A DNA stretch of 64,000 nucleotides from Naegleria gruberi. Its lineage: Eukaryota. This document shows positions 12,523-52,526 of the stretch, piece after piece; positions within the stretch are counted from its first letter, which is position 1, and the number at the start of each line of letters is the position of its first letter. The DNA lies in NCBI GenBank assembly GCA_000004985.1, contig GG738884.1. The stretch is one strand, 5' to 3'. The notes beneath the pieces are model-generated. The model was not told the DNA's origin and made no database searches. It was given only the letters and a program-made list of their open reading frames with translations. The position numbers and the translations under genes were made by a program.

Positions 12523-14122
12523 GTCACAAAAACACAACATTCTCCTCATCTTTCGTCGATTTGTAAGTTTCGGCGGGTGTGCCTTCTGCAATAGACGAAT
12601 GGTAGAGTTGATGGAATTTTACAGATCGCTCACACAGTTGAACATTGTACCAATTGTTGTTTATCCGGAAACTGAGGAAAGAGGAGAAGATTTTTTCAAT
12701 TCTGTAAGTTTACTACTGTTCAATGTTCAATAATATTAAATATTAAATACTATATTTACAATAATAATTAACTATTACTATTGAATATTTAACAACTTAC
12801 AAAAAAAATATTTAAAGTGGGAAATTCCCGAAATTTCATCACTCATTCGCGTTCCCGATCCAAACAATGAATTCGCCACTGTTTTTGATATTTACTCCGG
12901 CTCAGTTTCCAAAAAAGTAATCCTGACCTATCTCATTCCACAACTACTACTCACCAAAATGGATGGATTCTCACAGGAACGTAAGAAGAGGGATGAATAC
13001 CATGGGAAAAGTTTCTACATTCGACCTGCAATGTTTCTGATTAGGAGAGGGAAGGTCATCCATTCGTGGCGATTGAATTATGCCGATCATTGTCCTAAGG
13101 TTTTGGAAGAAATTGTTTTGAAATTGGATTTGAAAAGTGGTGGAGGTGATGATTTGGAAAGTTTGAAAATGAATGAGAAAAATGTTGTGAAAATTGAAAG
13201 TAAGAAAGTTATTGGAAAGGAAGAAGAGATGTTGAATGAAGTTTCTAATGAAAATGAAACAAGGAAGGAAGAATGTCAAAATGTAATAATGGAAATGGAA
13301 TTGAAAGAATGTGAATCTCAAATCAAGGAACAAATTCAAATGGAAGAAACTAAACTTGACGAATCTACCCTTCAAACCATTGAAATTTCCACACAAATCG
13401 ACATGCCAATCATTGACACTTCTAGAGAAATTCCAATCTACAAGAGAAAACAAGCAAGCTCATCATTGGAAATAATCACACCAACTGAAAAGAAGGAAAA
13501 TGAAAAAATTCAAACAATCAAAGCAAAGAAATCTCTCCAACCTAAATATTCCTGTTTTGGAAATCGAAATGTGGTAGGAGATTCGGATTTGAACATGTTG
13601 GTAGTTTTGGAAAATCCGAAACTTCGTAAATATTTCAAACTGTTTGCACATATGGAATTTAATATTGAGAATATTCTATTTTGGGAAGAAGTTAATACTC
13701 ACTACAAGCCAATTGCTTCATTTTCCAAATTTGACAAGACGAAATCAATTGCTACAAGTATTGGAAACCTTTTCCTATTCGATTCTCATTCAGTCATGCA
13801 CGTAAATACTTCGGATAAATTAAGGGAACAAGTAAGGGAACAAATTCAATTTCATTTCGAATCAAAATCCATTACTGAACTATTACCATCGAAATATAGA
13901 GTTAATAGATCATTAGAAGACACTGCTGTCGATCCACTTTCGAATACACCAGAAGAATCTGACAACATTTCACAACTTTCAATTGCTGATCGATTTAATG
14001 AAACAGTTACTGGAATATTTGATCCCATCATTAACGAAATGTTATCCTCTTCCATACAGGACATGTTTTTAAGATTCAGGACAAGTGATTTATTCTCCCA
14101 AATGATTTCTTCAGTAAAATAA
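12523..14122 (+). CDS. Fusion protein with an N-terminal PRXL2/FAM213-type thioredoxin-fold (AhpC/TSA-like, CxxC) domain and a C-terminal RGS domain. It is 5'-partial because of the gap. Exons are 12523..12703 and 12818..14122.
   Basis: The exon after the gap reads ...ILLIFRRFVSFGGCAFCNRRMVELMEFYRSLTQLNIVPIVVYPETEERGEDFFNS and ends at a GTAAGT donor (12704). The acceptor is ...tttaaag|TGG (12817/12818), in frame. Translation then continues ...MDGFSQERKKRDEYHGKSFYIRPAMFLIRRGKVIHSWRLNYADHCP, which matches the PRXL2A C-terminal half (NGGFSG...GGVFVVG..GKQGIL). It runs directly into the ORF-track ORF 12959..14122, whose C-terminus carries RGS motifs (YFKLFAHMEFNIENILFWEEVNTHYK ... SIQDMFLRFRTSDLFSQMI). 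A candidate first exon lies upstream of the gap, with an ATG at 12331 (MIQTNSFEMAILECLQYFSLVE, resembling PRXL2A ...AALEYLEDIDL); this is uncertain. Confidence 0.6.
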
Positions 14123-21339: not shown

Positions 21340-22290
21340 TGTAAAGGTCAACTTTAAATGTTCTGGTTGACCTTCCAAGGATGTGTGGTGGCATCCAGAT
21401 TAGAAAGTATTAGAAACTTCTTAAGCATGGATATCTAGATATGGAAAGCGAATATTTCTATAAATGCATTTTTGTATGAGCAACTTGGGAAAGTGAAGAT
21501 ACGATACAACGAAACTGTAATGATACGTTTGTATGCCACGTCTGGAGATTGGCTTCGCACATGATTTTAAGCAATTTGGCAAAACAACTTTTTTGTGTTT
21601 TAAAGTGCTTTATTTTGAAACAACACAAGAAATCAAACAACAATCTTTTGATAATTAGCTGAAGATTGAGCCAACTTTGAAATCTTTTCAAATAACATCA
21701 AGTCTTTATTCAATAATTGCCAAATCCTTAAAATTTTCATCTCACGATCTGGCAATTTCTGCAAACTAGTTGAGAATAGGTTTAGTTTAGTCTTGTCCAC
21801 CTTCTATTTCAGTATTTTGTTGAAACACTGAAAACCGCTACATATCCATCTCCACTAATTTTAAAAATCTAGTCATCAAATATGGAATATTTAAAAATCT
21901 CTATATAAAACCCTTCCTTTACTTATTGGCGATCGCTACAATGCAATTCCTTAATAGCTTTATTCGAAACTTAGAAAGTCTTTATAGCCAAGCTTCAAAC
22001 ACTATCAAAAAAACATTCAAACTGGTTTAGAGCATTTGTTCAGTCTTTAATTCAACGTTTCGTACAAAATAGACAGCTTACTTTAATTTATTAGAAACTC
22101 CAAGCTAACCTAAAGGTTTCGAATACTTCATCCCTCCTATTTCAAATTTACTTCCTCGATCAGTCAATAAGAAACTTGGTCATTGTACATTTCAGATAAG
22201 CTGTTATCTAAAAGAAATTTAATATTTATGTAGATTGCTGACAAGTTGCTTATTTGGAAACACCTAATTTATCTAAAACAACATTTTGCA

Positions 22291-23151
22291 ATGTGTCTTC
22301 ACACCCAGAAAAAAATGTCAAGTCCTTCAACCTCAGTTTCGAATAATTTGGTTTCGTCTGGTTCATTTCACTTTCACAATTTTGATCCAAAAGCAAATGA
22401 AGAGAAGAAACGATTGAATAGAGAAATGATTGCAAAGAATACACATAATGGAATGGCATTTAAACCAAGCAAGTATATGGTTGATATTCAACATTCGAAT
22501 AATAATCAAAGACAAGTTTCACCTGCATCTCCAGTTTCGTATAGAACAAGCCGATCAAATTCTTCTTCGAACAAGTCTGCTGCTAAAACGATTAGCAATT
22601 CTCATTCATCGATTTCCAAACAACACAAGCTACTTTCGAATAATCACCAATACTCTAAGAGTAGAATCTGTGAGAAACAACTGACCATTAATGCTTCTGA
22701 ATGGAACTCCATCAAGCAATCTATTGAATCAAGAAGCAGAAATGTTTCTAATTGTTCAAATTCAAGCACTCTAAGCAAATCTAGTTGTTACATTGACAAA
22801 AACTCTGTAAATGGTGATTATTCGAAAGGTTTCGTAAATTGCCCGTCCAACCGTAACTATTCAAGCAACTACCAAGTCTATTCTCCTCTGGCTCACTACT
22901 CTGAATACTCTCAAAATATATCACTAAGCAACACATCAAATCTGCCAAGTCAATTATCAATCAGCAAAACTATTCCACTAACCAGTTCAATATCACCAAA
23001 TAATGTCCCGTTCACCCGCTCCATGGCCACTCATTGTGAAAGATTACCCTCCATTCAACATTTACTTGAAACTATTCCAATAACAAAATTCGAAAGACGA
23101 AACAATAGTCAATTAAACACAGTTTCAATAATTGAATTGTTGAAACAATAA
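22291..23151 (+). CDS. Ser/Asn-rich low-complexity protein, paralog A of a tandem pair.
   Basis: The ORF 22246..23151 starts at a TTG; ATGs lie at 22291 and 22315. It shares the motif FHNFDPKANEEKKRLNREMIAKNTHNGMAFKPSKY with the next gene. The rest is S/N-rich. Confidence 0.35.
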   Translation: MCLHTQKKMSSPSTSVSNNLVSSGSFHFHNFDPKANEEKKRLNREMIAKNTHNGMAFKPSKYMVDIQHSNNNQRQVSPASPVSYRTSRSNSSSNKSAAKTISNSHSSISKQHKLLSNNHQYSKSRICEKQLTINASEWNSIKQSIESRSRNVSNCSNSSTLSKSSCYIDKNSVNGDYSKGFVNCPSNRNYSSNYQVYSPLAHYSEYSQNISLSNTSNLPSQLSISKTIPLTSSISPNNVPFTRSMATHCERLPSIQHLLETIPITKFERRNNSQLNTVSIIELLKQ

Positions 23152-23371
23152 ATGTCATGAATTAAATTGCCTTCAAAAGATGTTAACTCTGCATAACATT
23201 AAAATTTGGAAAACCAAGATTTCCCTTCCTGCCAAGTTGTCATTCCCAAAATGGACAATTAAAAAAGTTGAAAGGCCAGTTACAGAGATAAATGCCGACG
23301 CATCTTTTATCGAATTGGTAACATCATACTAACATGAAGTGGTTTGTTTTGCATCAAAAAAAACAAAAGAA

Positions 23372-24064
23372 ATGCAACAAGACAGTCCTCGTCAAGTTTT
23401 GAATGCAAATTGTAATTATTCAAGCTCAACTGTTGTGAGTAGAAGGAAGGGAAGGGGAACGTCTGGAAAATGTAGTGGAATGATGGAGAGTCATCATTTG
23501 GTTTCGAATAATAATCCATGGTTGAGGTTTCATTCTTATGATCCAGTTGAACATGAAGAAAAGAAGAGAAAGTTGAGAGAATACTCAAAACGAAACGCAT
23601 ACAAGGGTTTACACTTTAGACCAAGCAAGTATAATCAAGAGGTAGTTAAATTTTCAGTACAAGCTCCTAACATGTTGAGTGAGCAGAATCTAACAGAAAG
23701 GTCTGTATTAAAAGTTGATGAGAAGGCATGTAGTGCACATCAAGTGATCACCAACTCAAAGATACCACTCACTCATTTTCAAGTTTCTTCCATTATTCAG
23801 TTGGAATCGAATAGCTTAATTTCAACAACAAACAACATCCAAGCACCAACCGCCTCCAAATCAACATGCATTCAATTCACCCATCAAAACTCTAGAAACG
23901 TTCTTCCCTCCATAAATGAAATACTATCTCTCTCCAAAATTCAAAAAGCACCACACAAAATGATTCACAACTCATCTCTCCAAATCATCCAACAAAACTC
24001 AATCAATTCTGACAATTTTCAATTGGAAAATCTAACTCTTGCACCAATCAACATGTACTTCTAA
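23372..24064 (+). CDS. Ser/Asn-rich low-complexity protein, paralog B of a tandem pair.
   Basis: The ORF 23339..24064 starts at a GTG; the first ATG is at 23372. Shared motif RFHSYDPVEHEEKKRKLREYSKRNAYKGLHFRPSKY. Confidence 0.35.
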   Translation: MQQDSPRQVLNANCNYSSSTVVSRRKGRGTSGKCSGMMESHHLVSNNNPWLRFHSYDPVEHEEKKRKLREYSKRNAYKGLHFRPSKYNQEVVKFSVQAPNMLSEQNLTERSVLKVDEKACSAHQVITNSKIPLTHFQVSSIIQLESNSLISTTNNIQAPTASKSTCIQFTHQNSRNVLPSINEILSLSKIQKAPHKMIHNSSLQIIQQNSINSDNFQLENLTLAPINMYF

Positions 24065-24208: not shown

Positions 24209-26140
24209 ATGGGAAAGAGAGAATTATACAGAAATAAACAAGCTTTGGCTAATGCTGCTCCTCTGGCTCAAGCACACTCCCAACCGCTTGGTATTACCAT
24301 CGGAGCACGTACATCTAATGTAAAGATGCCTAAGGAGGCCATTCCAGCCATCTATTATGAAAAGATTTTAAAATACATGAAAACAAAGGAAATGTTGAAT
24401 GATATTGCAGGAGCTTGCACTAAATATTTGTACAAACCATCGGATTGGAAGTATTATTACTTTGAACATCGTTGGAAGGAATATTCTAACGTGAGAAGAG
24501 CCTTGCGTAAATTAATTCAAATGGGAACACTTCAAGTCTTGTTGAGAGGAAAGTATTATAAGGAAGAGACTTCTGATCCAGAAGCTATTACAAGTGGTGG
24601 TGCCTCTTCTTCTACTGATAATAATCAATCAGCTGATGCTAGTAATGTTGCTTCCGAAGAAGTTTTACAAGTAAAAGAAGAAGAATTTGAAACTTTTGTA
24701 ATTGGAGGAAGAACATTAACTAGAAAAAAGTATGTAAAGGCTTCTTCTGTGCCATCGAATAAGAAGGCCACCACTCCAGTTGATCAAGAGGAAATTCAAA
24801 TTGAAGAAGAAGAAACAATTAATCAACAAGCAATGAATAAGAAGAATAAGAAGAAGAATAAGAAAAACAAAAAGAAGGATCCTTTTGAATTGGATGAGGA
24901 AAATGATGATCAAGATGATGGAACTTTTGATGGATTTGAAATTACCAGAGATGAGGATCGTCCACAATTATATGAATTGAATGAATGGAAAGATGATCCA
25001 AAGAAGAATAAGAAACAAAATAAGAAACAAAACAAAAAGCAAAGTTCTAGTTTGGAAATTGAAGAAGATACTTTTGTAAAGGAAGAAGAAGGTGGTGATA
25101 AGGGAATTCCTTCTAAAGCTGTACATATTGATTTTAATAATATCAAAAAGATTGTAAAGGCAACTGAAAAGATTGATTGTGCTGAAAATGAAGCAGTTCA
25201 GAATATTACTCTCAACTTGACAAGAAAATCAAAGGAAGAATCATCCAGCTCTCAGAAAACTGTGATTCAGGTTGTTAAAGGTGACATGTTGGAAACTGCA
25301 ATTAGTTTGAGAAGGATTTGTAAACTTAATCCACTCGTTTTGGTCTCTGGTAGCCAAACTGTTCCAGGAGGATCTTTTGCTAAGGGAGGAAATACTCAAG
25401 AGGAAGATTTCTGTAGAAGATCATCATTGTCTTTAGCAATTGCTGATCCATACAGATTTGATGAAACTAGAGAGTGGACTTACCCATTACCTGAATTTGG
25501 AGGAATTTATACACCAAATGTTGTAGTGTTAAGAGGTCCAAAGAGCGATGGATATGCCTTCTTGGATAGAACATGGGCTTGCTCAATGTTTATCACCTAT
25601 CCTTATGTGAATCCACCAACAGAGAAGAGAAAGGTAGCCGATCCAAATACTGTCATTCCAAATGAAGAGGACGATGACGAAGAAGTAACAACTGAGAATT
25701 TCCTCTCTACCAAATTGTCCAACTCAATGAAGAAGAAGATTGCTGCCTACTTTGATGTTGCATTAAAGAAGGGTCATGATTCTCTTGTTATTGGTGCTCT
25801 TGGTTGTGAAAATACTCACTCCAATCCTGCCTATCATATTGCTCAACTTTTCAAGGAAGTATTGGCAAGTGAAATTTTCAAGGACAAGTTCAAGGTTGTC
25901 ATTTTCTCTATTTTGGTTGATAAGGAAACTGATAGCAAGTTGGCCAATGAAGGTGGTGCTGACGATGTGGAAGAAGTTGAGGATAATGATGACGTCGAAG
26001 ATCAACAAGATATCTCAACCAATCTGCTCGATACTTCAATTGAAAGAAAGAATAATCTTTCAGTATTTTCCAAATTATTCCACGGAAAGGAAGAAGCTCC
26101 AACAGCTGAAGAATTCATTCCAACCATTGAATGTAAATAA
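24209..26140 (+). CDS. Protein with a C-terminal bacterial-type PARG / DUF2263 (TIGR02452) macro-like domain and a Lys/Glu-rich central region.
   Basis: ATG at 24209. The C-terminal domain reads ...PLVLVSGSQTVPGGSFAKGGNTQEEDFCRRSSLSLAI...YTPNVVVLRG...DSLVIGALGCENTHSNPAYHIAQLFKEVL. This matches the mPARG diphosphate-binding loop and the catalytic QEE (NFAS.GGG...G...AQEE.LCR.S.L) and the second loop (LVLGA.GCGVF.NDP). The central region has KKNKKKNKKNKKK and KKNKKQNKKQNKKQ repeats. Confidence 0.6.
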   Translation: MGKRELYRNKQALANAAPLAQAHSQPLGITIGARTSNVKMPKEAIPAIYYEKILKYMKTKEMLNDIAGACTKYLYKPSDWKYYYFEHRWKEYSNVRRALRKLIQMGTLQVLLRGKYYKEETSDPEAITSGGASSSTDNNQSADASNVASEEVLQVKEEEFETFVIGGRTLTRKKYVKASSVPSNKKATTPVDQEEIQIEEEETINQQAMNKKNKKKNKKNKKKDPFELDEENDDQDDGTFDGFEITRDEDRPQLYELNEWKDDPKKNKKQNKKQNKKQSSSLEIEEDTFVKEEEGGDKGIPSKAVHIDFNNIKKIVKATEKIDCAENEAVQNITLNLTRKSKEESSSSQKTVIQVVKGDMLETAISLRRICKLNPLVLVSGSQTVPGGSFAKGGNTQEEDFCRRSSLSLAIADPYRFDETREWTYPLPEFGGIYTPNVVVLRGPKSDGYAFLDRTWACSMFITYPYVNPPTEKRKVADPNTVIPNEEDDDEEVTTENFLSTKLSNSMKKKIAAYFDVALKKGHDSLVIGALGCENTHSNPAYHIAQLFKEVLASEIFKDKFKVVIFSILVDKETDSKLANEGGADDVEEVEDNDDVEDQQDISTNLLDTSIERKNNLSVFSKLFHGKEEAPTAEEFIPTIECK

Positions 26141-26258: not shown

Positions 26259-27131
26259 TTAATTACTCTTGTCTGATTCTTCGCTCTTCTTGGCATTCTT
26301 GATGAGCCATTGTAAAGTCTTGTCAATATTTACAGAATTTTTAGCACTAATTGAGTAGCAAGATACTTCTCGTCCAGTAATAAGTTTGAGATCCAATTTG
26401 TCAATTAATTCTTGTACACCTCTAGCATTTGGTAAATCATTCTTATTTCCAAGTACCAGTAAAGGAATAGTCGAAAGAGAGGCTTTTCCAACCAATTCAT
26501 GAAGCTCCTTTTTGGCTACTTCCAATGTTTGTTCATCACTTGCAGAGTCCACAACATATACAATAGCTCCAACTCCTCTACAATATCTCTGTGTTTTTTG
26601 AAATGTAATATTATAACAATCATAATATTAGATAGAATGTGATGACAACAAGTATGAAATTAAAATTAAATATATTACGTTCATATCAAATACATACCTC
26701 CCACATGTTTCTGAATTTGGATTGACCTATTATTGTCAATTTAAATCATCGTTAGTATCATGATAATCCAAAGTTATTAGAAAAATATTAAATGATTAGA
26801 ATAACAATTTGTCATCACAGTTGAACAACATATGATGGACCATCATCATAGTTAATAGTGATGATTATAATAATAAATAATTGAATAGTTTTCAAAAGAA
26901 TGACATACCTCCGATATCCCACAACTTGATTTCTACACCTCCTTTACTCACTTTTCGCATATTAAAGCCAATAGTTGGTATAGTATCCTCATTCATCTGA
27001 CCAAATGAAATTGTATTTACAAGTGTCGTTTTACCAGCATTTTGCAATCCGACCAATGTAAGTTCCAACTCTTGCTTCCAGAAGAGTGATTTAATCCAAT
27101 CCATCAATGATTTCAAAGCTGCTGCTAACAT
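26259..27131 (-). CDS. ARL8: ARL8-type Arf-like small GTPase encoded in three exons: 26909..27131, 26698..26726 and 26259..26588.
   Basis: Exon 1 reads [75 protein letters not shown] and ends at a GTATGT donor (26908). A 29-nt micro-exon encodes (G)QSKFRNMWE, flanked by aatag| and |gtatgta. Exon 3 starts at acacag|AGA and reads [20 protein letters not shown]...[12 protein letters not shown]...[23 protein letters not shown]. The splice joins restore the canonical WDIGGQxxFRxMWERYCRG switch II of ARL8. Confidence 0.75.
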
Positions 27132-29967: not shown

Positions 29968-30038
29968 TCGGGTGTGGTATAGTGGTAGCATTCCAGACTG
30001 TCACTCTGGCGACCCGGGTTCAATTCCCGGCACTCGAG
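29968..30038 (+). tRNA. tRNA-Asp(GUC): tRNA-Asp (anticodon GUC).
   Basis: TCGGGTGTGGTATAGTGGTAGCATTCCAGACTGTCACTCTGGCGACCCGGGTTCAATTCCCGGCACTCGA G. U1-A72 as in metazoan and fungal tRNA-Asp. Anticodon stem CCAGA/TCTGG, loop CUGUCAC. T-arm CCGGG-TTCAATT-CCCGG. One A-C mismatch in the D-stem. Confidence 0.8.
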
Positions 30039-37305: not shown

Positions 37306-37401
37306 AGGAATGGGATCTTAACACTAAAATGACTGCCTAGCCTATTCTATTTAATTTTTCGTTTGTAAAACAGCAAAAAATTTCATGGCTCGCCACGTTT
37401 A

Positions 37402-37472
37402 CCGTCTCGGGAGGAATCGAACCTCCGTCAATGGATTCAAAGTCCACTATGCTACCATTACACCACGAGACG
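37402..37472 (-). tRNA. tRNA-Gln(UUG): tRNA-Gln (anticodon UUG).
   Basis: Minus-strand sequence CGTCTCGTGGTGTAATGGTAGCATAGTGGACTTTGAATCCATTGACGGAGGTTCGATTCCTCCCGAGACG G. Acceptor stem CGTCTCG/CGAGACG. Anticodon stem GTGGA/TCCAT, loop CUUUGAA. T-arm GGAGG-TTCGATT-CCTCC. The D-arm TGGTGTAATGGTAGCA is typical of tRNA-Gln. Confidence 0.8.
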
Positions 37473-37586
37473 AGCACATTCATAATGTTTGTAGTTCATT
37501 TATATTCACGAAAAGTTTTGTTGCTTTAGCTGCATTACTGCCCAAGTTATAAAATTTTATTAGAGTTCGTTCCAATCTTTTAAAAT

Positions 37587-39557: not shown

Positions 39558-42086
39558 TTAAGGAGATTGCACACTCTTAATATGTTCTTTCCATTTCCTT
39601 GAATTATTAAATCTATAAAACGAGTCCATTAAATTTTTGTAAACCTCTGTTTGTAAAGTTGGGAAAATATTTGGTTTACAAATGTTTGTAATGAGCGGTT
39701 TCATGAGTTCTTCTTGGGATTGATCGATATTTGGGAAATATCTCAATGAAATATCTTTCATGATACGAGGAAGTTGGTTGATTTTGAGTTTGTGGTTGTT
39801 GAGAAGGTTTTGAAGTTCTTTGTAATCTTTCAGTTCAGTGTGGATGATTTTGGAAGGAACGTTAATTTCGAATACTGAACTGCTTTCGGATAGGTAGAGT
39901 TTAGTCATTTCCTTGATTTTCATTACTTTGGAACGAACGTGTCTTTCGTTAATCTTTCTCAATCGATTTAAATCCTCAATGAAGAGTAAATTTTCAACTG
40001 AATATTCTTCTCTCAAATATTGATAGAATAAATCTCTTTCCTTCTTGTGTGAAATGATAAAGTCAATTGAGTAGGAACAAATTGGAGAGGAGAGTAATTG
40101 TTGAATACTTTGAATAGCGTTGGCGTTCTTATCATTGGAGGAATCACTGTTATTGAGATTGGCGGCTTTTCTCTTTTCTTTAAAGGCAAGGAAAAAGTTC
40201 CAAATGCCTTTCATTACAGTTATGCCTGGATTACTGATCGAGCCACCAAGGAAATTGAGACCAATAGCTAGTACGAGTGATGAAGTCAATTGTGAACTAA
40301 TTGGGCCATATGATGGGACAATAACGAGAACTATTCCAGAAGCAATATCGAAAATGACAATGAAAAGACTTTCCACTCTATATACGAAAGGATCAGTTTC
40401 GTAAAAGTAGTAAATAAAGAAATTTTCAGTCTTTTCTCCCTTTTCCTTATTGATTCTTCTTGTTTGGATGTATTTGTAAATGGAAAATATGAAATCCACT
40501 GCCAAAAATAATGGAATAGCAAGGAATAGTATAAAAAGAACGATAATTGCATAAATAGAAACATTGTCTCTATCAATCTTTCTACAATATCCACTGTTTT
40601 GCTCCCAAGAGTAAAAGACACTCTCCCAGGAGTCTTTCGCATGAGAAGCAACTCTAACACTGATAATTACAAACCAAACAATGACCCACAAGGAAATATA
40701 CGATATTTCAACAATTCGATATTTGATAATCTTCTTCAACAAGTTGGCAAATCTTCCTTGTTTGGAAATTTCTTCGTAAGATGTAGAGATGGCATCGTCA
40801 TCGGTTGTCAAATCCAAAGCAATGTCATCGTAATCAGAGTAGGCATTGGAAATTTCATCAAGTTCTGAAGGCCTTGAACCTCTGGCAGACATTGGTGCAT
40901 CACTATTGACTGATTGTGAAAGAGAACTCAAATCCAAAGTCGAAACACCCTCATTAAGAGCAACATTTGAAGCACTAGAAGGGAATTGACCTAAATCTTC
41001 AGTACTTTCTGCTGGTCTCCTCAATGATTTTCTGTTTTGAATTGTATTGGAAGTAGCGTTTTGCTGTTCTGTCTTGTTTTGTAATTTGATGTTTTTGAAT
41101 TTTTCCAATTGCTTTCGTTTGAAATCTTCCAATGATTTTACAATATCCTGTCTCTTGTCCTTTAAAAGTGTCAAAAGCAAGAGTTTGATAATCTGAATAC
41201 TATACAGAGCTACACTGAGAACGACAAGCCCATAAAGCACATACGAATTAACGAAACAATACACATTCTCAAATGTAATATAATTGACCAACCAATTTGG
41301 CAAACCATTGCTAGAATTCAAGTTATTTTGATAAAAAGTTGCAGCGCTAACCGATTTAGTACTCTTTTCCATTAAAAATTGATTCCAATAACTTTCAAAA
41401 TACATCTTAATCCACGGTAAAAAATCAAGTGTACCCTGAATATGACTGATAACATTCAAACCAACCAAAATTAGTGAAACAAAGAATTTCGACTTGATTG
41501 GTTCATAATTTCTCAACAGGAAAATGCAACATGTGAGAAAAATATCAAAAATGACAATTACTACTCTGATAGCAATTGTCACAGTCGTAACCAAATTATT
41601 TCCACTAATCATGACAATTGCCTGCTGAGCTGTAGTCAAATTATAAGTAACATTTCCCAACAGGATTGAAAATTCTGTCGTGTTATAATCCTTCAATGCA
41701 ACATCAGATGGTGCTTGAATTACTTCATGTTGTGAAGAATTATCAACAACAACAACTGAGAGATGATGCATTGTCATGAGTGATGGTGAGTCGATATCAT
41801 TTGGGATAGAGTATGTTTTAAAACGATCTGCTAGGTGACCAATTGTGTTGATTAGGAAGTTCTCCTGACTTTCTAAATGTGTTTTTGTTGAGGTGGAACG
41901 TGTTGATGGAATACTGGTGGCTGACATTGTTTCGGCAAAAAAGCATGTATTGCACAAAAAGAGAAACAAGACTACAAGTATGGTAAGAGTATAAATTTTT
42001 CTAGAACGGCTTTTTGGAAAGTGGCTTGTTGATGGAGACATTTTGTGTACGAATGATGACATGTGGTGGCAATGCTGTTTCATCAA
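39558..42086 (-). CDS. Seven-transmembrane receptor-like protein with a C-terminal RGS domain (7TM-RGS).
   Basis: ATG at 42086. The N-terminus has a signal or TM segment and an ectodomain with N-glycosylation sequons. Seven hydrophobic helices are split three and four around a large acidic loop. The C-terminal RGS motifs are ...SIDFIISHKKERDLFYQYLREEYSVENLLFIEDLNRLRK ... LMDSFYRFNNSRKW. Confidence 0.65.
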   Translation of the reverse strand: MMKQHCHHMSSFVHKMSPSTSHFPKSRSRKIYTLTILVVLFLFLCNTCFFAETMSATSIPSTRSTSTKTHLESQENFLINTIGHLADRFKTYSIPNDIDSPSLMTMHHLSVVVVDNSSQHEVIQAPSDVALKDYNTTEFSILLGNVTYNLTTAQQAIVMISGNNLVTTVTIAIRVVIVIFDIFLTCCIFLLRNYEPIKSKFFVSLILVGLNVISHIQGTLDFLPWIKMYFESYWNQFLMEKSTKSVSAATFYQNNLNSSNGLPNWLVNYITFENVYCFVNSYVLYGLVVLSVALYSIQIIKLLLLTLLKDKRQDIVKSLEDFKRKQLEKFKNIKLQNKTEQQNATSNTIQNRKSLRRPAESTEDLGQFPSSASNVALNEGVSTLDLSSLSQSVNSDAPMSARGSRPSELDEISNAYSDYDDIALDLTTDDDAISTSYEEISKQGRFANLLKKIIKYRIVEISYISLWVIVWFVIISVRVASHAKDSWESVFYSWEQNSGYCRKIDRDNVSIYAIIVLFILFLAIPLFLAVDFIFSIYKYIQTRRINKEKGEKTENFFIYYFYETDPFVYRVESLFIVIFDIASGIVLVIVPSYGPISSQLTSSLVLAIGLNFLGGSISNPGITVMKGIWNFFLAFKEKRKAANLNNSDSSNDKNANAIQSIQQLLSSPICSYSIDFIISHKKERDLFYQYLREEYSVENLLFIEDLNRLRKINERHVRSKVMKIKEMTKLYLSESSSVFEINVPSKIIHTELKDYKELQNLLNNHKLKINQLPRIMKDISLRYFPNIDQSQEELMKPLITNICKPNIFPTLQTEVYKNLMDSFYRFNNSRKWKEHIKSVQSP

Positions 42087-42488: not shown

Positions 42489-45400
42489 TTATTTATCTTC
42501 ACGTCCTGGTGAATAGGCAGGAGATGATGGACTATAGCTTGGACTAGTTGGTGAATAGCTAGGACTGGTTGGAGAATAAGCAGGTGAAGATGGACTATAA
42601 CCACCACCAGGATTGTAACTTGGACTGCTTGGTGAATAGGCAGGAGAAGATGGTGAATAGTTTGGACTGGATGGTGAATAAGCTGGTGATGATGGTGAAT
42701 AATTTGGACTGCTTGGTGAATAGCTTGGACTAGTTGGTGAGTAAGCTGGAGAAGATGGACTATAACCAGCACCAGGACTTGTAGCACGTGGACTAGTTGG
42801 AGAGTAAGCTGGTGATGATGGTGAATAGTTTGGACTTGTTGGAGAATAAGCTGGTGAAGTAGGCGAGTAAGCAGGAGATGTTGGTGAATAATTTGGTGAA
42901 GTTGGTGAGTAAGCTGGTGATGTAGGACTGTAATTTGGACTTGTTGGTGAATAAGCTGGTGAAGTTGGTGAATAGTTTGGACTACTTGGAGAATAAGCAG
43001 GTGAGGTTGGACTATAATTACCTGGTGAGGATGGAGAATAGCCACCTTGATGTCCAGGAGAAGTTGGAGAACTAGCAACTGGAGAGAATGCAGAATTATA
43101 AGGTGAAGGACTGAATCCACCTTGGTATTCTGGTGAAGGAGTTCTTCCAAGAGGAGTCATTGCACCTTGAGTCCATGGACTTGAAGCACCACCATGATAT
43201 GGGGTAGCAACACCACCATGATAAGGTGTAGCCAAACCACTTGTATGATAAGGTGTTGTTGCACCAAGACTTCCATACATTGATTTAGTTTCAGTAACAA
43301 AGCTTGGTTTAACAGCAACAGCTTGCTTCAATAATTCTTCATCCAAATACAAACCAAAACAACCAGTACCAATTGGAGCCAATTGACCAACCATAACGTT
43401 AGCAGAAACACCCTTCAAAGTATCAGTATCAGCAAATGTAGCAGCTTCAATAAGAATTTCAACAGTTTCTTCGAAAGAACATCTCATCAATGGACCAGTG
43501 TCACTACGATTAATACCGTGACGAGTAATAGCCATCAAACCACCTCTGTGAGTCATAACATCACACAAAATGGCCAAGTGACGATAGTTAACATAAGAAC
43601 CGTCAAATTCAATAACCTTTCTCATTTCTCTCATGAGGGCATTTCTACATGCTTCAATACCCAAAACATCAAGAATTTCATTAACATCGTTAGATGTTGT
43701 AATAGTATGATCAACATAAGGGTGAGATAAGACAGCCAACAAGTTACATCCTTCAGTATCCAAAACCCATTGTTTAACAGTAGCAACACCAGAACTGCTG
43801 AAAACCTTCTTGTCATTTTCTTCTCTCAAAAAGACCTTCTTGAGATCCTTATAACCCTTAAGGGCCAATTCGTTCAACATGTTTGATTCGAGTCTTCTCA
43901 AAAATTCAACAGTACTATTTTCAATGTCTTCTTCTTCAAGCTTTCTGAGAACTTCATCACTTGGATCCTTTGCAACTTGAGCATCCTTTTCCTTTTCTTT
44001 ATCATCCTTGTGAATACGAACAACGAGAATAAGTTTGTCAGCGTTATCGTCAGAGTAGAAACAAGTAATGTCGTTTTGGAATTCTTCTTGAATCTTCTTA
44101 GCAACTTGAGCCATAGTCAATGTGTCACTCATCATCATCTTGTCAAGTTCAAATCTGAGAGACCATGGATTGAGAGTAGTTGAATCCAAAACTGCTGTAT
44201 CCTTGAGTTCTTCCAACAATTCTTCTATGAATTCTCTATCTTCTTCAATAACAGAGTTTGCTGGCTCTGGATCGTAAACAATTGAAGTAGCAGCAGTAAC
44301 ATGTCCAAGAGTAGTATATTCCAAATCTTCCTTAACCATCTTGGCCTTTTCAAAGTCACCAATATATTCATTATTCAAATAAATAGTCAAACCTGGAGTC
44401 TTAATATTCTTGGCAACGTTCAACAATTCCTTCAAACGAGGAACACCCAAAGTAACGTTCTTTGAAGACACACCGGCAAAGTGGAAAGTATTCAAAGTCA
44501 TTTGAGTAGCAGGTTCACCAATAGATTGGGCAGCAACAGAACCGACCATTTCACCTGGTTGAGCCAAACAATTGTGGAATCTCATTCTAATTTCACCAAC
44601 CAAAAAGTCAAAGGCTTCTTGGGTAAGACACAATTCTTTAAGAACAACCTTTGAAGAGAAGGTTGATCTCAAGAACATACTGAAAAGTAAAGTTGCATTA
44701 GTTTGAGCTTCAGTTGACAATTCATCAGTACCCTTGATAACAACCAAGTCGTCACACAACTTCTTAATCTTTTCAATAACATAAATAGGATTCATGTCTG
44801 ATGGCTTACCAATACTTGGATGGATACCATATTCTTTTTGAGCATTCTTAATAATACGTTTCAAGTTGACAGGCATGACAATCTTATTTTCAGCATTAGG
44901 GAAGATTTCAGTACGTAAAATGTGACGATCTTCCATCAAAGTCTTGTATTCTTCACGGACCTTTGAGAGATAGGTTGCAGGATCCTTCAAAATTTCATCA
45001 TAAACCTTAGTAGAAATGAAAGACTCCTTAAGAATACCACCTGATGGCATTGAAACACTAGATTCAGTTGGGTTTGTGAAAGAAGGAGAACTACCAAGAG
45101 AATTGTACCAATACTTGTCTTGGAATTTAGCATCACTCAAATTCATAATATCAATTGATTGAGATTCAACCTTGTGGGCATCCATACCATCTTCACCATA
45201 CAAGAATTGGACAACATTACCTTGAGCATCACGGACAGTACCATCGTACTTGACCATGATATCTTCCATAGCCTTTATCAATCTTCTTTGGATATAACCA
45301 GTTTCAGATGTCTTGACGGCAGTATCGATCAAACCTTCACGACCACCCATAGTGTGGAAGAAGAATTCTTGAGGAGTTAAACCTCTGAGGTAACTGTTAG

Positions 45401-47989
45401 CAACGAAACCACGACTTTCAGGACCATGGTCATCTTGGGCAAAGTGAGGTAAAGTTCTATTACGGAAACCATAAGGAATACGTTTACCTTCGACGTTTTG
45501 CTGACCGACACAAGCAATAATTTGTGAAATGTTAATGTAAGAACCCTTAGAACCGGCTGTCACCATGGACTTGATGTTATTGTCATCCTTCAATGACTTC
45601 TTAGCCTTGTTACCAGCATCTTCTCTGGCCTTGTTAAGAACCTTGTTAACTTGATTTTCGAAAGATTGTTGAATAGTTCTACCAGCTTCAGCTCTCAATT
45701 TACCTTCTTGAGCATCCTTGACAATAAGTTTGACGTCCTTTTCGGCTTTTCTAATAGTTTCTTCGATTTGTTCCATAGTAGCTTTATCGGCAATAGTGTC
45801 ACCAATACCAATACTGAAACCACGGTTAATAAGCCAATGGTTAATAACTCTTTGACATTGGCCCAAGAATTTCTTTCCTTCATTAACACCCTTTTCATTG
45901 ACAATAATGTGAATCAATGAACCGTGAGAAGAACCTAGAGATTTCTTGTCCAAAACACCTGAAACTAATTCACCTCTGTCAATTAAAACCTTTGTATCAA
46001 ATTCAGGTATGTCGTGATCCAAGTGATCTTTCTTATCGGTCAAATCTTCGTGGGTTGATGATGTATTTTCAAGATTGACTTTTGGAAGAAGGAATGTGAA
46101 AAGTTGTTTACCAGTCCACAATGGTTTTGGTTTCAAAATAGCTGGAACAGGTAATTTACCATCAAAATCAATCAAGTGCATTAAGCAATTCATCATTAAA
46201 TCTTTAGCAATAAAGACATCACGACGTGTAAGTTTAGAAGCAGCCAATAAAGTATCTTGGACAAGGGCAATAACTGGTCTGTTACTTTGAGGAGTAATAA
46301 TATTCCTAGGGACCATCATTAATTCTAACAATTCGGCTTTTGTTTGAAGAGATTGTGGAACGTGCAAATTCATTTCGTCACCGTCAAAGTCAGCATTGTA
46401 TGGGGTAGTGACTGACAAATTCATTCTGAATGTACTGTAAGGCATGACCTTAATTCTGTGACCCATCATAGACATTTTGTGGAGAGAAGGTTGTCTGTTG
46501 AAAAGAATAACATCACCATCTTGTAAGTGACGTTCAACTTTGTAACCATATTCCAATTGAATTTGATCGTTAGCTTTTCCTGAAGCAAATCTCAAATCGA
46601 TACGTGTACCATCTTCACGAATAACATACTTGGCACCAGGATAAGTTAAAGGACCATTTGTAACTAATTCATTCAATCTTTCAAAATTGAAAGGTGTAAC
46701 AATTTCAGGTACTGTCATATTTGAAGCAACAGTACGAGGAACACCAACTTGATCAATATCAATATTTGGATCGGCAGTAATGACAGTTCTTGCAGAAAAA
46801 TCAACACGTTTACCCATCAAGTTACCTCTGACACGTCCTTCCTTACCCTTCAATCTTTGTCTGATTGACTTTAAAGGTCTTCCACTTTTAGTTGTAGCTG
46901 TTGGAACACCTGGATATTCATTATTCACATAGGTAGCACAGTGATATTGTAACATTCTAACCATTTCTTCCATTTGATGAAGTGGTGTACCTGACTTTTC
47001 ATTCTTTTGAATGGCAGCATTAGCCTTGATAATATCTGCAAGTTTGTGTGTCAAGTCATCTTCAGAACGATCAGCTGAACCGTGGTGAACACTTGGACGA
47101 ACCTGTGGTGGAGGAATAGGTAAACATGTAAGAATCATCCATTCTGGACGAGCATTATCCTTATCAAAACCTAACAATTCCAAATCCTCAGCAGGAATTC
47201 TCTTAAAGATTTGAAGAGCACGTTCTGCTGTCAATTCTTGTTTTGTTAATTCTTGTTTAGCTTCGGCGCTAGTATCCTTCTTATATTCTGCAAAAATCTT
47301 TAATCCATCTCTGGAAATCTTAGGTTGGAGACCACCACAACCATTTCTTGGTTGGAAAGTTGGGTCAATATTAGCTTCTTGATTTTGTTCATTTTCCTTG
47401 TTTCCTGTTTCTATTATACATTTGTCTTTTCTACACAGATCGATCATTTCTTTGAATCTTTTACGTCTGTTCACGAATTTTGATGCCTTCTTAAATTGTA
47501 AGCTACTCTTATCCGCTAAAAGTTTACCACAATGAATACACACACTTTGTAGCACCTTCACTACTGTATTAATAAAGAGAACATTAAACACTGGATGTAT
47601 TCTAACGTGGCCAAAGTGACCAGGACATTCTGTAGCGTTACCTCCACAACTATTATTGTTAATTAGTTATTATTATTAGTGATGTTGTTGTTGTAATAGT
47701 TTGTTATCATTGTTGATGAGAGAAATTATGAAGAACAGGATTTTTGTATTAAAGATTAGAGGCTTGTTAAATTTCCTCCAAATACTTACGTCAGACAAGA
47801 AAGATGGTGATCAATGGTACCCATACGAAGATCCATCAAACCACTTTCCTTTGGTTTTCCCTTTTCTTGTGTTTCAGCGTGAAGCACTTCACAGACAGAC
47901 ATCTTTTCAATAACTTCAGGATTCAAGATACCGAATTGAATTCTATCAACTCTGGCCAATTCGATTGGCGAGAACGAGAAGAGAGACAT
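42489..47989 (-). CDS. RPB1: RNA polymerase II largest subunit. Exon 1 is 47790..47989 and exon 2 is 42489..47649, separated by a 140-nt intron (47650..47789).
   Basis: Exon 1 reads MSLFSFSPIELARVDRIQFGILNPEVIEKMSVCEVLHAETQEKGKPKESGLMDLRMGTIDHHLSCL and ends at a GTAAGT donor. The acceptor is aataatag|T TGT GGA GGT, restoring ...CLTCGGNATECPGHFGHV. Exon 2 carries all the conserved Rpb1 blocks (NADFDGDEMNLHVPQS, the bridge helix, the trigger loop). The C-terminal domain has about 24 heptads YSP(T/S)SP(A/N/S). The ORF-track 'M' at 47591 is a GTG inside exon 2. Confidence 0.95.
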
Positions 47990-52452: not shown

Positions 52453-52526
52453 GCAGCGATAGATCAGTTGGTTAGATCGTAAGCCTAACACGCTTAAGGT
52501 CGCGGGTTCAAGCCCCGCTCGCTGTA
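52453..52526 (+). tRNA. tRNA-Val(AAC): tRNA-Val (anticodon AAC).
   Basis: GCAGCGATAGATCAGTTGGTTAGATCGTAAGCCTAACACGCTTAAGGTCGCGGGTTCAAGCCCCGCTCGCTGT A. D-arm GATC/GATC. Anticodon stem TAAGC/GCTTA, loop CUAACAC. T-arm GCGGG-TTCAAGC-CCCGC. G1-U72 wobble pair. Confidence 0.8.

What the first reader, a model, noticed from the sequence alone, without database searches (positions are those of the whole stretch)
24209..26140. Eukaryotic protein with a bacterial-type PARG (DUF2263/TIGR02452 macro-like) domain that retains the catalytic QEE
The C-terminal 300 aa contain GSQTVPGGSFAKGGNTQEEDFCRRSSL and LVIGALGCENTHSNP. These correspond to the diphosphate-binding loop with catalytic Glu-Glu, and to the second signature loop, of microbial-type poly(ADP-ribose) glycohydrolases. 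The N-terminal half is a Lys-rich region with repeated KKNKK units, which are nuclear-localisation-like. This suggests an active ADP-ribose-removing enzyme in a protist, possibly chromatin-associated.
Basis: partly seen in the sequence, partly recalled or inferred. Interest (0 to 1): 0.6.

Follow-up and report, generated by a model that had tools for sequence, protein, structure and literature searches.

The report
Naegleria-type microbial PARG with insert
This is an intact amoeba (Naegleria-like) gene for a bacterial-type poly(ADP-ribose) glycohydrolase that keeps its catalytic Gln-Glu-Glu but has an altered substrate-holding loop and a long disordered insert inside the enzyme domain; this class of gene is already reported in Naegleria, so it is a fairly ordinary find.

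Summary

- The enzyme domain is not just the C-terminal 300 aa. It starts at a helix at aa 93-113 and is split by a 175-aa disordered insert, where relatives have about 4 residues.
- That insert is net acidic. Its two KKNKK runs come from 12-nt DNA repeats.
- The second loop, GCENTHSNP, lacks the family's G[A/V][F/Y] patch (N-T-H plus one extra residue), and GGG is GGS.

A sister pair in the same lineage shows strong purifying selection (core dN/dS about 0.04). Whether the protein is an active PAR hydrolase, a hydrolase with altered specificity or a non-catalytic reader is unresolved. Nuclear targeting is only a pattern match.

Perina et al. 2014 already reported up to seven bactPARGs in N. 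gruberi, several with partly degenerate signatures. I rate this a new member of a known kind, of low to moderate interest.

The parts
24209..26140 (+). Complete single-exon CDS (643 codons plus stop) of the microbial-type PARG homologue
   Evidence: ORF listing. Aligns end to end with N. lovaniensis C9374_002239, 53% identity and 100% coverage. The ORF reads through both positions where the N. lovaniensis gene has introns.
24209..24484 (+). N-terminal helical extension (aa 1-92) carrying the pattern PLGI...P..YY...Y.P.dWkyyyF; shared with eukaryotic family members; no Pfam family
   Evidence: BLASTP of aa 1-125 finds the same module at the N-termini of relatives from Willaertia, Acrasis and Balamuthia, among others. 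AF2 pLDDT is about 90 or above for aa 41-120. No Pfam hit.
24485..24574 (+). First helix and strand of the PARG domain (aa 93-122, NVRRALRKLIQMGTLQVLLRGKYYKEE); the 'N-terminal accessory element' of bacterial-type PARGs
   Evidence: In the 119-sequence alignment this helix aligns with the N-terminal helix of short relatives that begin with it (P0009, P0035, P0057, P0112). In Balamuthia P0017 the PF10021 match starts inside the equivalent helix, at profile position 4. AF2 gives helix 93-113 and strand 115-119, pLDDT >90.
24575..25099 (+). Insert 1 (aa 123-297): 175-aa disordered, charged, net-acidic insertion between the first strand and the next strand of the PARG domain
   Evidence: Relatives have about 4 residues here; Naegleria and Willaertia have 119-179. 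AF2 pLDDT is mostly <50 (about 59 around aa 161-170). Composition 15% K, 25% D+E, net charge -13. For the same insert in a sister pair, dN/dS is about 0.15.
24836..24877 (+). Basic run 1, NKKNKKKNKKNKKK (aa 210-223), encoded by a 12-nt tandem repeat
   Evidence: TRF: 24839-24877, period 12, 3.2 copies. K-K/R-x-K/R pattern matches at aa 211 and 215. A basic patch occupies the same place in relatives.
24914..24997 (+). Conserved acidic/aromatic motif inside the insert, DDGTFDGFEITRDEDRPQLYELNEWKDD (aa 236-263)
   Evidence: Near-identical in the Naegleria relatives P0001-P0003: DDGTFDGFEIQREEDKEPLYELNEWKED.
25001..25042 (+). Basic run 2, KKNKKQNKKQNKKQ (aa 265-278), encoded by a 12-nt tandem repeat
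   Evidence: TRF: 25007-25043, period 12, 3.1 copies; pattern match at aa 265.
25100..25954 (+). Macrodomain core of the PARG domain (aa 298-582)
25283..25285 (+). Asp359 in the family's conserved GD motif
   Evidence: Asp in 148 of the 155 other family sequences. A role in adenine contact is inferred from general macrodomain knowledge and was not tested.
25364..25405 (+). Catalytic (PARG signature) loop PGGSFAKGGNTQEE (aa 386-399): GGS-X7-QEE; E399 is equivalent to the catalytic Glu (DrPARG E112, TcPARG E115)
   Evidence: Aligned to DrPARG GGGFLGGAQAQEE and TcPARG GGGFLSGAHAQEE. E112A abolishes DrPARG activity (PMC6445106). The third Gly is Ser here; it is Gly in 143 and Ser in 4 of the 155 other family sequences.
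25802..25831 (+). Diphosphate-binding loop GCENTHSNPA (aa 532-541): derived form lacking the G[A,V][F,Y] patch, with a one-residue insertion (E534)
   Evidence: The family consensus is GCGA[FY]xNPP. Among the 155 other family sequences, G occurs in 150, A/V in 144 and F/Y in 147; the window has N, T and H, and an extra residue after GC that only 8 of the 156 aligned sequences (window included) have. The role of the patch is described in PMC7050489 and PMC4030884.
25955..26044 (+). Insert 2 (aa 583-612): 30-aa acidic disordered insertion near the C-terminal region, which in TcPARG contains the 'ribose cap'
   Evidence: pLDDT about 50; net charge -13. Relatives read ...DDHNxxxxHNPxGNxxPFxxxF without this stretch.
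26045..26137 (+). Conserved C-terminal helix element (aa 613-643, ...KNNLSVFSKLFHGKEE...)
   Evidence: Matches the family C-terminal motif GN..PF...F (F624 is nearly invariant in A3). AF2 gives helix 616-625 with block-mean pLDDT about 81-97 over aa 611-640.

Best explanation
The gene encodes a heterolobosean (Naegleria-type) member of the microbial-type PARG family, a macrodomain ADP-ribose glycohydrolase.

Shown here: the fold and family, the aligned catalytic QEE, the split-domain architecture and purifying selection in the lineage.

Inferred mechanism: the macrodomain cleft binds a terminal ADP-ribose. E399, the second Glu of QEE, protonates the 2'-O leaving group of the ribose-ribose (or ribose-2'-OH) bond, and E398 and water resolve the oxocarbenium intermediate, releasing ADP-ribose as in TcPARG and DrPARG. 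This lineage has remodelled the diphosphate-binding loop: G-A-F/Y became N-T-H with one extra residue, and GGG became GGS. I therefore expect weakened or shifted substrate handling, not a textbook PARG.

The 175-aa charged, disordered loop inserted into the domain, with its two basic patches and a conserved acidic/aromatic motif, most likely provides targeting (possibly nuclear) or partner binding. This last point is speculative.
For: Family membership: PF10021 64.8 bits and TIGR02452 79.3 bits, both above the curated cut-offs; profile match to 3SIG at E=8.6e-25.

Catalytic residues: QEE aligns with the catalytic QEE, and other family-invariant residues are kept (D359, R403, R404, Y425, P426, Y434, R442, H543, F548). 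QEE is invariant in the closest relatives P0001-P0005.

Selection: for N. lovaniensis P0001 against its close relative P0002, dN/dS is 0.08 overall and 0.04 in the core. His at the F/Y position is conserved through the derived lineage.

Architecture. N. gruberi is reported to have PARPs and several bactPARGs (PMC4245714). The mechanism is taken from PMC4030884, PMC7050489 and PMC6445106.
Against: The G[A,V][F,Y] patch is absent. The literature describes it as positioning the distal ribose and diphosphate for catalysis. The window has N-T-H with an extra acidic residue, states seen in at most 5 of the 155 other family sequences. The third Gly of GGG is Ser. Related proteins in the same derived lineage (N. 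fowleri FDP41_008054 and P0082) have lost the catalytic Glu (QEDD), which shows that catalysis is dispensable for at least some members. Perina et al. explicitly left the functionality of such partial-signature N. gruberi bactPARGs open. There is no activity, expression or localisation data. The dN/dS test used a sister pair, not the window gene itself, whose dS against relatives is saturated.
Confidence: 0.55

Rival explanations
1. It is a catalytically dead or strongly attenuated macrodomain that acts as an ADP-ribose or PAR binding 'reader' (a pseudo-PARG). The charged disordered insert would recruit partners.
For: The defining G[A,V][F,Y] patch is lost and GGG reads GGS. Relatives in the same derived lineage have QEDD instead of QEE. 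A second, canonical-looking heterolobosean paralogue group (N. gruberi P0159, N. fowleri 000498) could supply the actual PARG activity. Strong purifying selection is equally compatible with a binding role.
Against: Both glutamates, the Gln and most other family-invariant residues are strictly kept in the window protein and its closest relatives. A pure reader has no obvious need to keep QEE. His at the aromatic position is conserved and could still pack against the ribose (inference).
Confidence: 0.25
2. It is an active hydrolase whose preferred substrate is not protein-linked PAR but ADP-ribosylated nucleic acid (2'-OH RNA, or 5'/3'-phosphate DNA/RNA ends). Bacterial-type PARGs are known to have this activity.
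For: [quoted passage not shown] Family members are fused to PF08719 (which I know as the NADAR domain) and to PF03747 (which I know as an ARH-type hydrolase domain). A remodelled substrate loop and basic patches would fit a nucleic-acid substrate (inference).
Against: No evidence is specific to this protein. The insert is net acidic, and nothing in the window links the gene to nucleic-acid ADP-ribosyltransferases.
Confidence: 0.15
3. The gene is an artefact: bacterial contamination, a very recent horizontal transfer or a decaying pseudogene.
For: The family is named 'microbial/bacterial-type', and bacterial members are in the same subfamily (Microscilla, Bacteroidaceae).
Against: GC content is uniform at about 0.28-0.39 across the window. 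The flanks are eukaryotic genes. Orthologues exist in N. lovaniensis (with spliceosomal introns), N. fowleri and Willaertia. The ORF is intact and the lineage is under purifying selection.
Confidence: 0.02

Closest known systems
Bacterial-type (microbial) PARG: T. curvata PARG (PDB 3SIG) and D. radiodurans PARG (PDB 5ZDA-5ZDG); Pfam PF10021 / TIGR02452 / DUF2263
   Same: Same family by HMM and the best structural match. It shares the N-terminal accessory helix, the macrodomain core, the QEE catalytic pair and the C-terminal element.
   Different: GGS instead of GGG. The diphosphate loop is GC-E-NTH-SNPA instead of GCG[AV][FY]xN[DP]P. Val replaces the LN[FM]AS Asn, though this change is shared with otherwise canonical eukaryotic relatives (17/155). 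There is a 175-aa disordered insert after the first strand, a 30-aa acidic insert near the ribose-cap region and a 90-aa N-terminal extension.
N. gruberi bactPARG set described by Perina et al. 2014 (PMC4245714)
   Same: A heterolobosean genome with multiple bactPARG paralogues, only some with a full GGG-X6-8-QEE. The window protein (GGS-X7-QEE) fits the 'partially conserved signature' class.
   Different: The paper gives no accessions or architecture. The exact window protein is not in the searchable collections, so identity with one of the seven could not be verified. The split-domain insert and the diphosphate-loop change do not appear in the passages of that paper that I read.
Naegleria lovaniensis C9374_002239 (UniProt name: Microbial-type PARG catalytic domain-containing protein)
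   Same: Probable orthologue: 53% identity over the full length, with the same N-terminal module, insert position, basic patches, acidic/aromatic motif, QEE and GC[DE]NTHSNPA loop.
   Different: Its gene has two introns that are absent here. It has AGS instead of GGS, a shorter insert (151 against 175 aa) and different neighbouring genes.
Canonical eukaryotic PARG (Tetrahymena 4EPP, Drosophila 8ADJ, human)
   Different: No match to a canonical PARG family in the Pfam scan, 9% identity, and no tyrosine clasp could be assessed. The protein belongs to the microbial-type branch.

Membership tests
Microbial-type PARG (PF10021 / TIGR02452 / DUF2263) | Significant match to the family HMMs above the curated thresholds | tested here: met
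   PF10021: 64.8 bits against 23.5. TIGR02452: 79.3 bits against 50, covering aa 316-572 and profile positions 17-255 of 266.
Microbial-type PARG (PF10021 / TIGR02452 / DUF2263) | PARG-like macrodomain fold with an N-terminal accessory helix | tested here: met
Microbial-type PARG (PF10021 / TIGR02452 / DUF2263) | Catalytic loop GGG-X6-8-QEE with both glutamates | tested here: inconclusive
   Q397-E398-E399 are present and aligned with the catalytic QEE, and the spacing is X7. However, GGG reads GGS; the third Gly is Gly in 143 and Ser in 4 of the 155 other family sequences. This is the 'partial signature' class of Perina et al. 2014.
Microbial-type PARG (PF10021 / TIGR02452 / DUF2263) | Diphosphate-binding loop with the hydrophobic patch G[A,V][F,Y] (the GVFG-type Phe that restrains the diphosphate and distal ribose) | tested here: not met
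   The window reads GC-E-N-T-H-SNPA. The consensus G, A/V and F/Y are present in 150, 144 and 147 of the 155 other family sequences. The feature is defined in PMC7050489 and PMC4030884. This does not cancel sequence or fold membership, but it lowers the claim that the protein works like a canonical PARG.
Microbial-type PARG (PF10021 / TIGR02452 / DUF2263) | Conserved Asn of the LN[FM]A[SN] strand preceding the catalytic loop | tested here: not met
   The window has Val379; the family has N in 125 and V in 17 of the 155 other sequences. V is shared with relatives that are otherwise fully canonical (P0008, P0011, P0014), so it is a subfamily trait.
Microbial-type PARG (PF10021 / TIGR02452 / DUF2263) | C-terminal 'ribose cap' that enforces exo-only cleavage | not testable with these tools
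   The region is conserved in outline, but it carries a 30-aa acidic disordered insert (aa 583-612).
Microbial-type PARG (PF10021 / TIGR02452 / DUF2263) | PAR (ribose-ribose O-glycosidic) hydrolase activity dependent on the second Glu | not testable with these tools
   This needs an enzyme assay. Only homology-based inference is available.
Canonical PARG | Match to a canonical PARG catalytic-domain family with accessory domain and tyrosine clasp | tested here: not met
Linker-histone/winged-helix DNA-binding domain (my own early idea for aa 40-120) | Winged-helix fold or a family match | tested here: not met

The most novel reading that the evidence does not exclude
The derived Naegleria lineage to which this gene belongs (GG[SA]-X7-QEE, GC-x-[GN][AT]H loop, 120-180-aa charged insert inside the domain) may be a neofunctionalised PARG. 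On this reading it kept the catalytic Glu pair but rebuilt the ribose/diphosphate-clamping loop around a conserved His, and so acts on a different ADP-ribose linkage (for example nucleic-acid ADP-ribosylation) or works as a regulated, insert-gated enzyme in the nucleus. A canonical paralogue would do the ordinary PAR turnover.
Probability: 0.2. Interest if true: 0.45.

Novelty: new member of a known kind. Interest (0 to 1): 0.25.

Why it matters
Bacterial-type PARGs in eukaryotes are known but almost unstudied biochemically. Naegleria has an unusually large set, some members with degenerate signatures whose function the literature leaves open. This gene is a clean example of a lineage that keeps QEE under strong purifying selection yet has replaced the aromatic clamp thought to be needed for catalysis, and has a long disordered loop inserted into the domain. 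Testing it would show whether the G[A/V][F/Y] patch is truly essential, and whether such 'partial-signature' PARGs are enzymes, specificity variants or readers. Beyond that, the find mainly confirms what automatic annotation and a 2014 survey already say.

Tried and rejected
1. Winged-helix or linker-histone idea for aa 40-120: rejected. There is no Pfam hit, and the segment is the family's own N-terminal module and helix.

2. Splice test: I removed aa 123-300 and rescanned. Scores rose only about 3 bits and the HMM match still began at profile position 17 (TIGR02452) or 27 (PF10021), so this test was inconclusive. The question was settled instead by the 119-sequence alignment, the AF2 model and the Balamuthia PF10021 boundary.

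3. In-frame retained intron: the two intron positions of the N. lovaniensis gene are read through as conserved coding sequence in the window. The extra ~55 residues at aa 125-180 lie in the variable insert. I could neither confirm nor exclude a small in-frame intron there.

4. Source species: exact-match look-ups of the PARG and three neighbouring ORFs found nothing (searches used wrong minus-strand ends and were repeated). The organism is therefore only inferred to be Naegleria-like, possibly N. gruberi, whose slot in this paralogue group is otherwise empty.

5. AFDB50 fold search: the library was unavailable.

6. Model coordinates are not exposed, so active-site geometry (His537, Glu534, ribose cap) could not be measured.

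7. PARP, macro or a second PARG in the window: none found.

8. The Perina et al. supplement holds no list of N. gruberi accessions.

9. The word-indexed homology searches were leaky. Searches missed N. fowleri P0013, and one search also missed P0001, so absence from those lists is not evidence of absence.

10. In the Pfam scans of minus-strand ORFs I trimmed the wrong end, so those queries lacked the first residue. This does not affect the domain calls.
Full report
OBSERVATION. Window 24209-26140 (+) is a single 643-codon ORF with an ATG start. The two Lys runs are at aa 210-223 and 265-278. The N-terminus MGKRELYRNK is conserved in the N. lovaniensis and Willaertia homologues, which supports the start codon.

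FAMILY AND FOLD. The protein matches Pfam PF10021 (PARG_cat_microb; E=1.5e-17, 64.8 bits, cut-off 23.5) and NCBIfam TIGR02452 (E=3.3e-22, 79.3 bits, cut-off 50). Alone it finds D. radiodurans PARG (5ZDF, E=1.5e-5) and T. curvata PARG (3SIG, E=2e-4) in the PDB, with QEE aligned to QEE. A nine-sequence profile of the domain hits 3SIG at E=8.6e-25.

ORGANISM AND CONTEXT. The best homologues are N. lovaniensis C9374_002239 (53% identity, full length), two unnamed assemblies, and Willaertia magna. Further relatives are N. fowleri, N. gruberi (a paralogue), Acrasis and Balamuthia. The window has a uniform GC content of about 0.28-0.39 and encodes RPB1 with CTD heptads, SH2, RGS, Kelch, LRR and ZIP proteins, and an intron-split Arf GTPase. 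It is therefore nuclear DNA of a Naegleria-like amoeba.

Exact look-ups of this protein and three neighbours found nothing, so the species is not confirmed. In a rough NJ tree the window occupies a position for which no N. gruberi sequence was found, so N. gruberi or a close relative is plausible. The N. lovaniensis orthologue has two introns that the window gene lacks. No PARP, macro or second PARG gene lies in the 64 kb. The literature reports PARPs in N. gruberi (PMC4245714).

ARCHITECTURE (a correction to the finding). The PARG domain is not just the C-terminal 300 aa. In an alignment of 119 family members, window aa 93-119 (NVRRALRKLIQMGTLQVLLRGKYY) aligns with the helix that opens short, bacterial-like members (P0009, P0035, P0057, P0112). 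In nearly all relatives that helix is followed by about 4 residues and then the next strand ('V.l'). The window has 175 residues there, and its Naegleria and Willaertia kin have 119-179.

In Balamuthia P0017 the PF10021 match begins at profile position 4, inside the equivalent helix. AF2 predicts helix 93-113 and strand 115-119 at pLDDT >90, then a disordered stretch with pLDDT mostly <50 over aa ~125-295, then strand 302-306 and the core. A direct splice test with the HMMs was inconclusive, raising scores by only about 3 bits.

THE 'LYS-RICH' REGION. The insert is 15% Lys but 25% Asp+Glu, giving a net charge of -13. The two KKNKK runs are each encoded by a 12-nt tandem repeat of about 3 copies. 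They flank a motif, DDGTFDGFEI.R.ED...LYELNEWK, that is conserved among Naegleria relatives. K-K/R-x-K/R patterns occur at aa 211, 215 and 265. That is the only basis for calling the region NLS-like, and no localisation evidence exists. In a sister pair the insert evolves under constraint (dN/dS about 0.15), so it is not junk.

ACTIVE SITE. I compared the window with the 155 other family sequences retrieved up to that point. Most of them are the best representatives of the 11,663 found by an exhaustive profile search.
- Kept: D359 (148/155), P386-G387-G388, G393, Q397, E398 (155/155), E399 (151/155), R403, R404, Y425, P426, Y434, R442, G532, C533, N539, P540, H543 and F548.
- Changed: the third Gly of GGG is Ser (G in 143, S in 4). 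The LN[FM]AS Asn is Val (N in 125, V in 17); this change is shared with otherwise canonical relatives, so it is a subfamily trait. The diphosphate loop reads GC-E-N-T-H-SNPA where the family has GCG-A-[F/Y]-xNPP (G in 150, A/V in 144, F/Y in 147 of 155). The extra residue after GC occurs in only 8 of the 156 aligned sequences, the window included.

According to the literature, the G[A,V][F,Y] patch bends the distal ribose towards the catalytic loop, and its Phe restrains the diphosphate that stabilises the oxocarbenium intermediate (PMC7050489, PMC4030884). The second Glu is the essential catalytic residue: DrPARG E112A is inactive, and TcPARG E115 is the equivalent position (PMC6445106; 3SIJ). 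GGS-X7-QEE is the catalytic loop, and GCENTHSNP is the diphosphate-binding loop.

EVOLUTION. A rough NJ tree places the heterolobosean proteins in one clade with two lineages.
- One lineage has canonical loops (N. gruberi P0159, N. fowleri 000498, Willaertia 006664, P0005).
- The other is derived: Willaertia 003597, N. fowleri 008054, P0003, the window, and N. lovaniensis P0001 with P0002.
In the Naegleria members of the derived lineage (Willaertia 003597 instead has a deletion in this loop) the aromatic residue is His and the loop is one residue longer. The residue after GC varies (G, D or E), which suggests that position is tolerant. N. fowleri 008054 and P0082 have additionally lost the catalytic Glu (QEDD).

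Nei-Gojobori dN/dS between N. lovaniensis P0001 and its close relative P0002 is 0.070/0.839 = 0.08 overall and 0.041/0.943 = 0.04 in the core. The window's own comparisons are saturated at dS about 1.5, with core dN of 0.28. The lineage is therefore maintained by selection, but selection alone cannot tell a hydrolase from a binder.

INTERPRETATION. I am confident that this is a genuine eukaryotic member of the microbial-type PARG family. My best estimate, at about 0.55, is that it still hydrolyses ADP-ribose O-glycosidic bonds through E399, with altered efficiency or specificity because of the remodelled clamp loop. The rivals are:
- a non-catalytic ADP-ribose or PAR reader (about 0.25);
- a hydrolase that prefers nucleic-acid ADP-ribosylation (about 0.15), an activity shown for bacterial-type PARGs in PMC11833690 and hinted at by family fusions with PF08719 and PF03747;
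- an artefact or pseudogene (about 0.02).
Nuclear or chromatin association is speculation based on two short basic runs.

NOVELTY. Perina et al. 2014 already reported bactPARGs in all eukaryotic supergroups except plants. They found up to seven in N. gruberi, only three with a full GGG-X6-8-QEE, and left the function of the others open (section read). Cho et al. 2019 also list 'some protozoan species'. UniProt automatically names the N. lovaniensis and N. fowleri homologues 'Microbial-type PARG catalytic domain-containing protein'.

The specific details found here did not appear in the papers I read:
- the domain is split by a lineage-specific disordered insert;
- the aromatic clamp is replaced by a conserved His;
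- there is a shared eukaryotic N-terminal extension;
- QEE was lost in a relative within the same derived lineage.
These are variations within a known family. I rate this a new member of a known kind, with interest about 0.25.

Noticed in passing
window 22246-23151 (+) and 23339-24064 (+): Two tandem ORFs just upstream of the PARG gene share a conserved ~40-aa motif (FH.[FY]DP...EEKKR..RE...N..G..F[KR]PSKY). They are 29% identical overall and have no Pfam match, so they are probably tandem paralogues of an uncharacterised Naegleria protein.
   Followed up: partly
window 26259-27131 (-): An Arf-family small GTPase is split by an intron: the N-terminal exon is at about 26892-27131 and the C-terminal exon at about 26259-26552. 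From memory it looks Arl8-like, which I did not test.
   Followed up: partly
window 42489-47591 (-): The largest subunit of RNA polymerase II (RPB1 domains 1-7) with C-terminal heptad repeats. This confirms a eukaryotic nuclear origin for the window.
   Followed up: partly
P0013 (N. fowleri FDP41_008054) and P0082 (JGI metagenome): These relatives in the same derived PARG lineage have QEDD instead of QEED, so the catalytic second Glu is Asp. They also have GGT or CIG in place of GGG. They are likely non-catalytic or attenuated copies.
   Followed up: partly
L001:6001-8065 (N. lovaniensis PYSW02000015.1): The N. lovaniensis orthologue has two spliceosomal introns, one after about codon 9 and one after NRNW in the catalytic domain. 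Both are absent from the window gene. The neighbouring genes also differ, so there is no local synteny.
   Followed up: partly
family hits P0040, P0187, P0221, P0194, P0184 and P0012: Several domain fusions occur in the wider family: PF10021 with PF08719 (JGI name 'ribA/ribD-fused'; I know it as NADAR), PF10021 with PF03747, and PF10021 with a C-terminal UBA domain in Glomus. A 1441-aa protein, P0012, has five matched PARG-like stretches.
   Followed up: no
window 29968-30038 (+), 37401-37473 (-), 52453-52526 (+): Three tRNA genes (Asp-GTC, Gln-TTG, Val-AAC) are scattered among the protein-coding genes.
   Followed up: no
window 12959-14122 (+) and 39558-42086 (-): Two separate RGS-domain proteins lie in the same 64-kb window, along with LRR/F-box-like, Kelch, DUF4116 and class-3 lipase proteins. 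This is typical of the signalling-gene-rich Naegleria genome.
   Followed up: no
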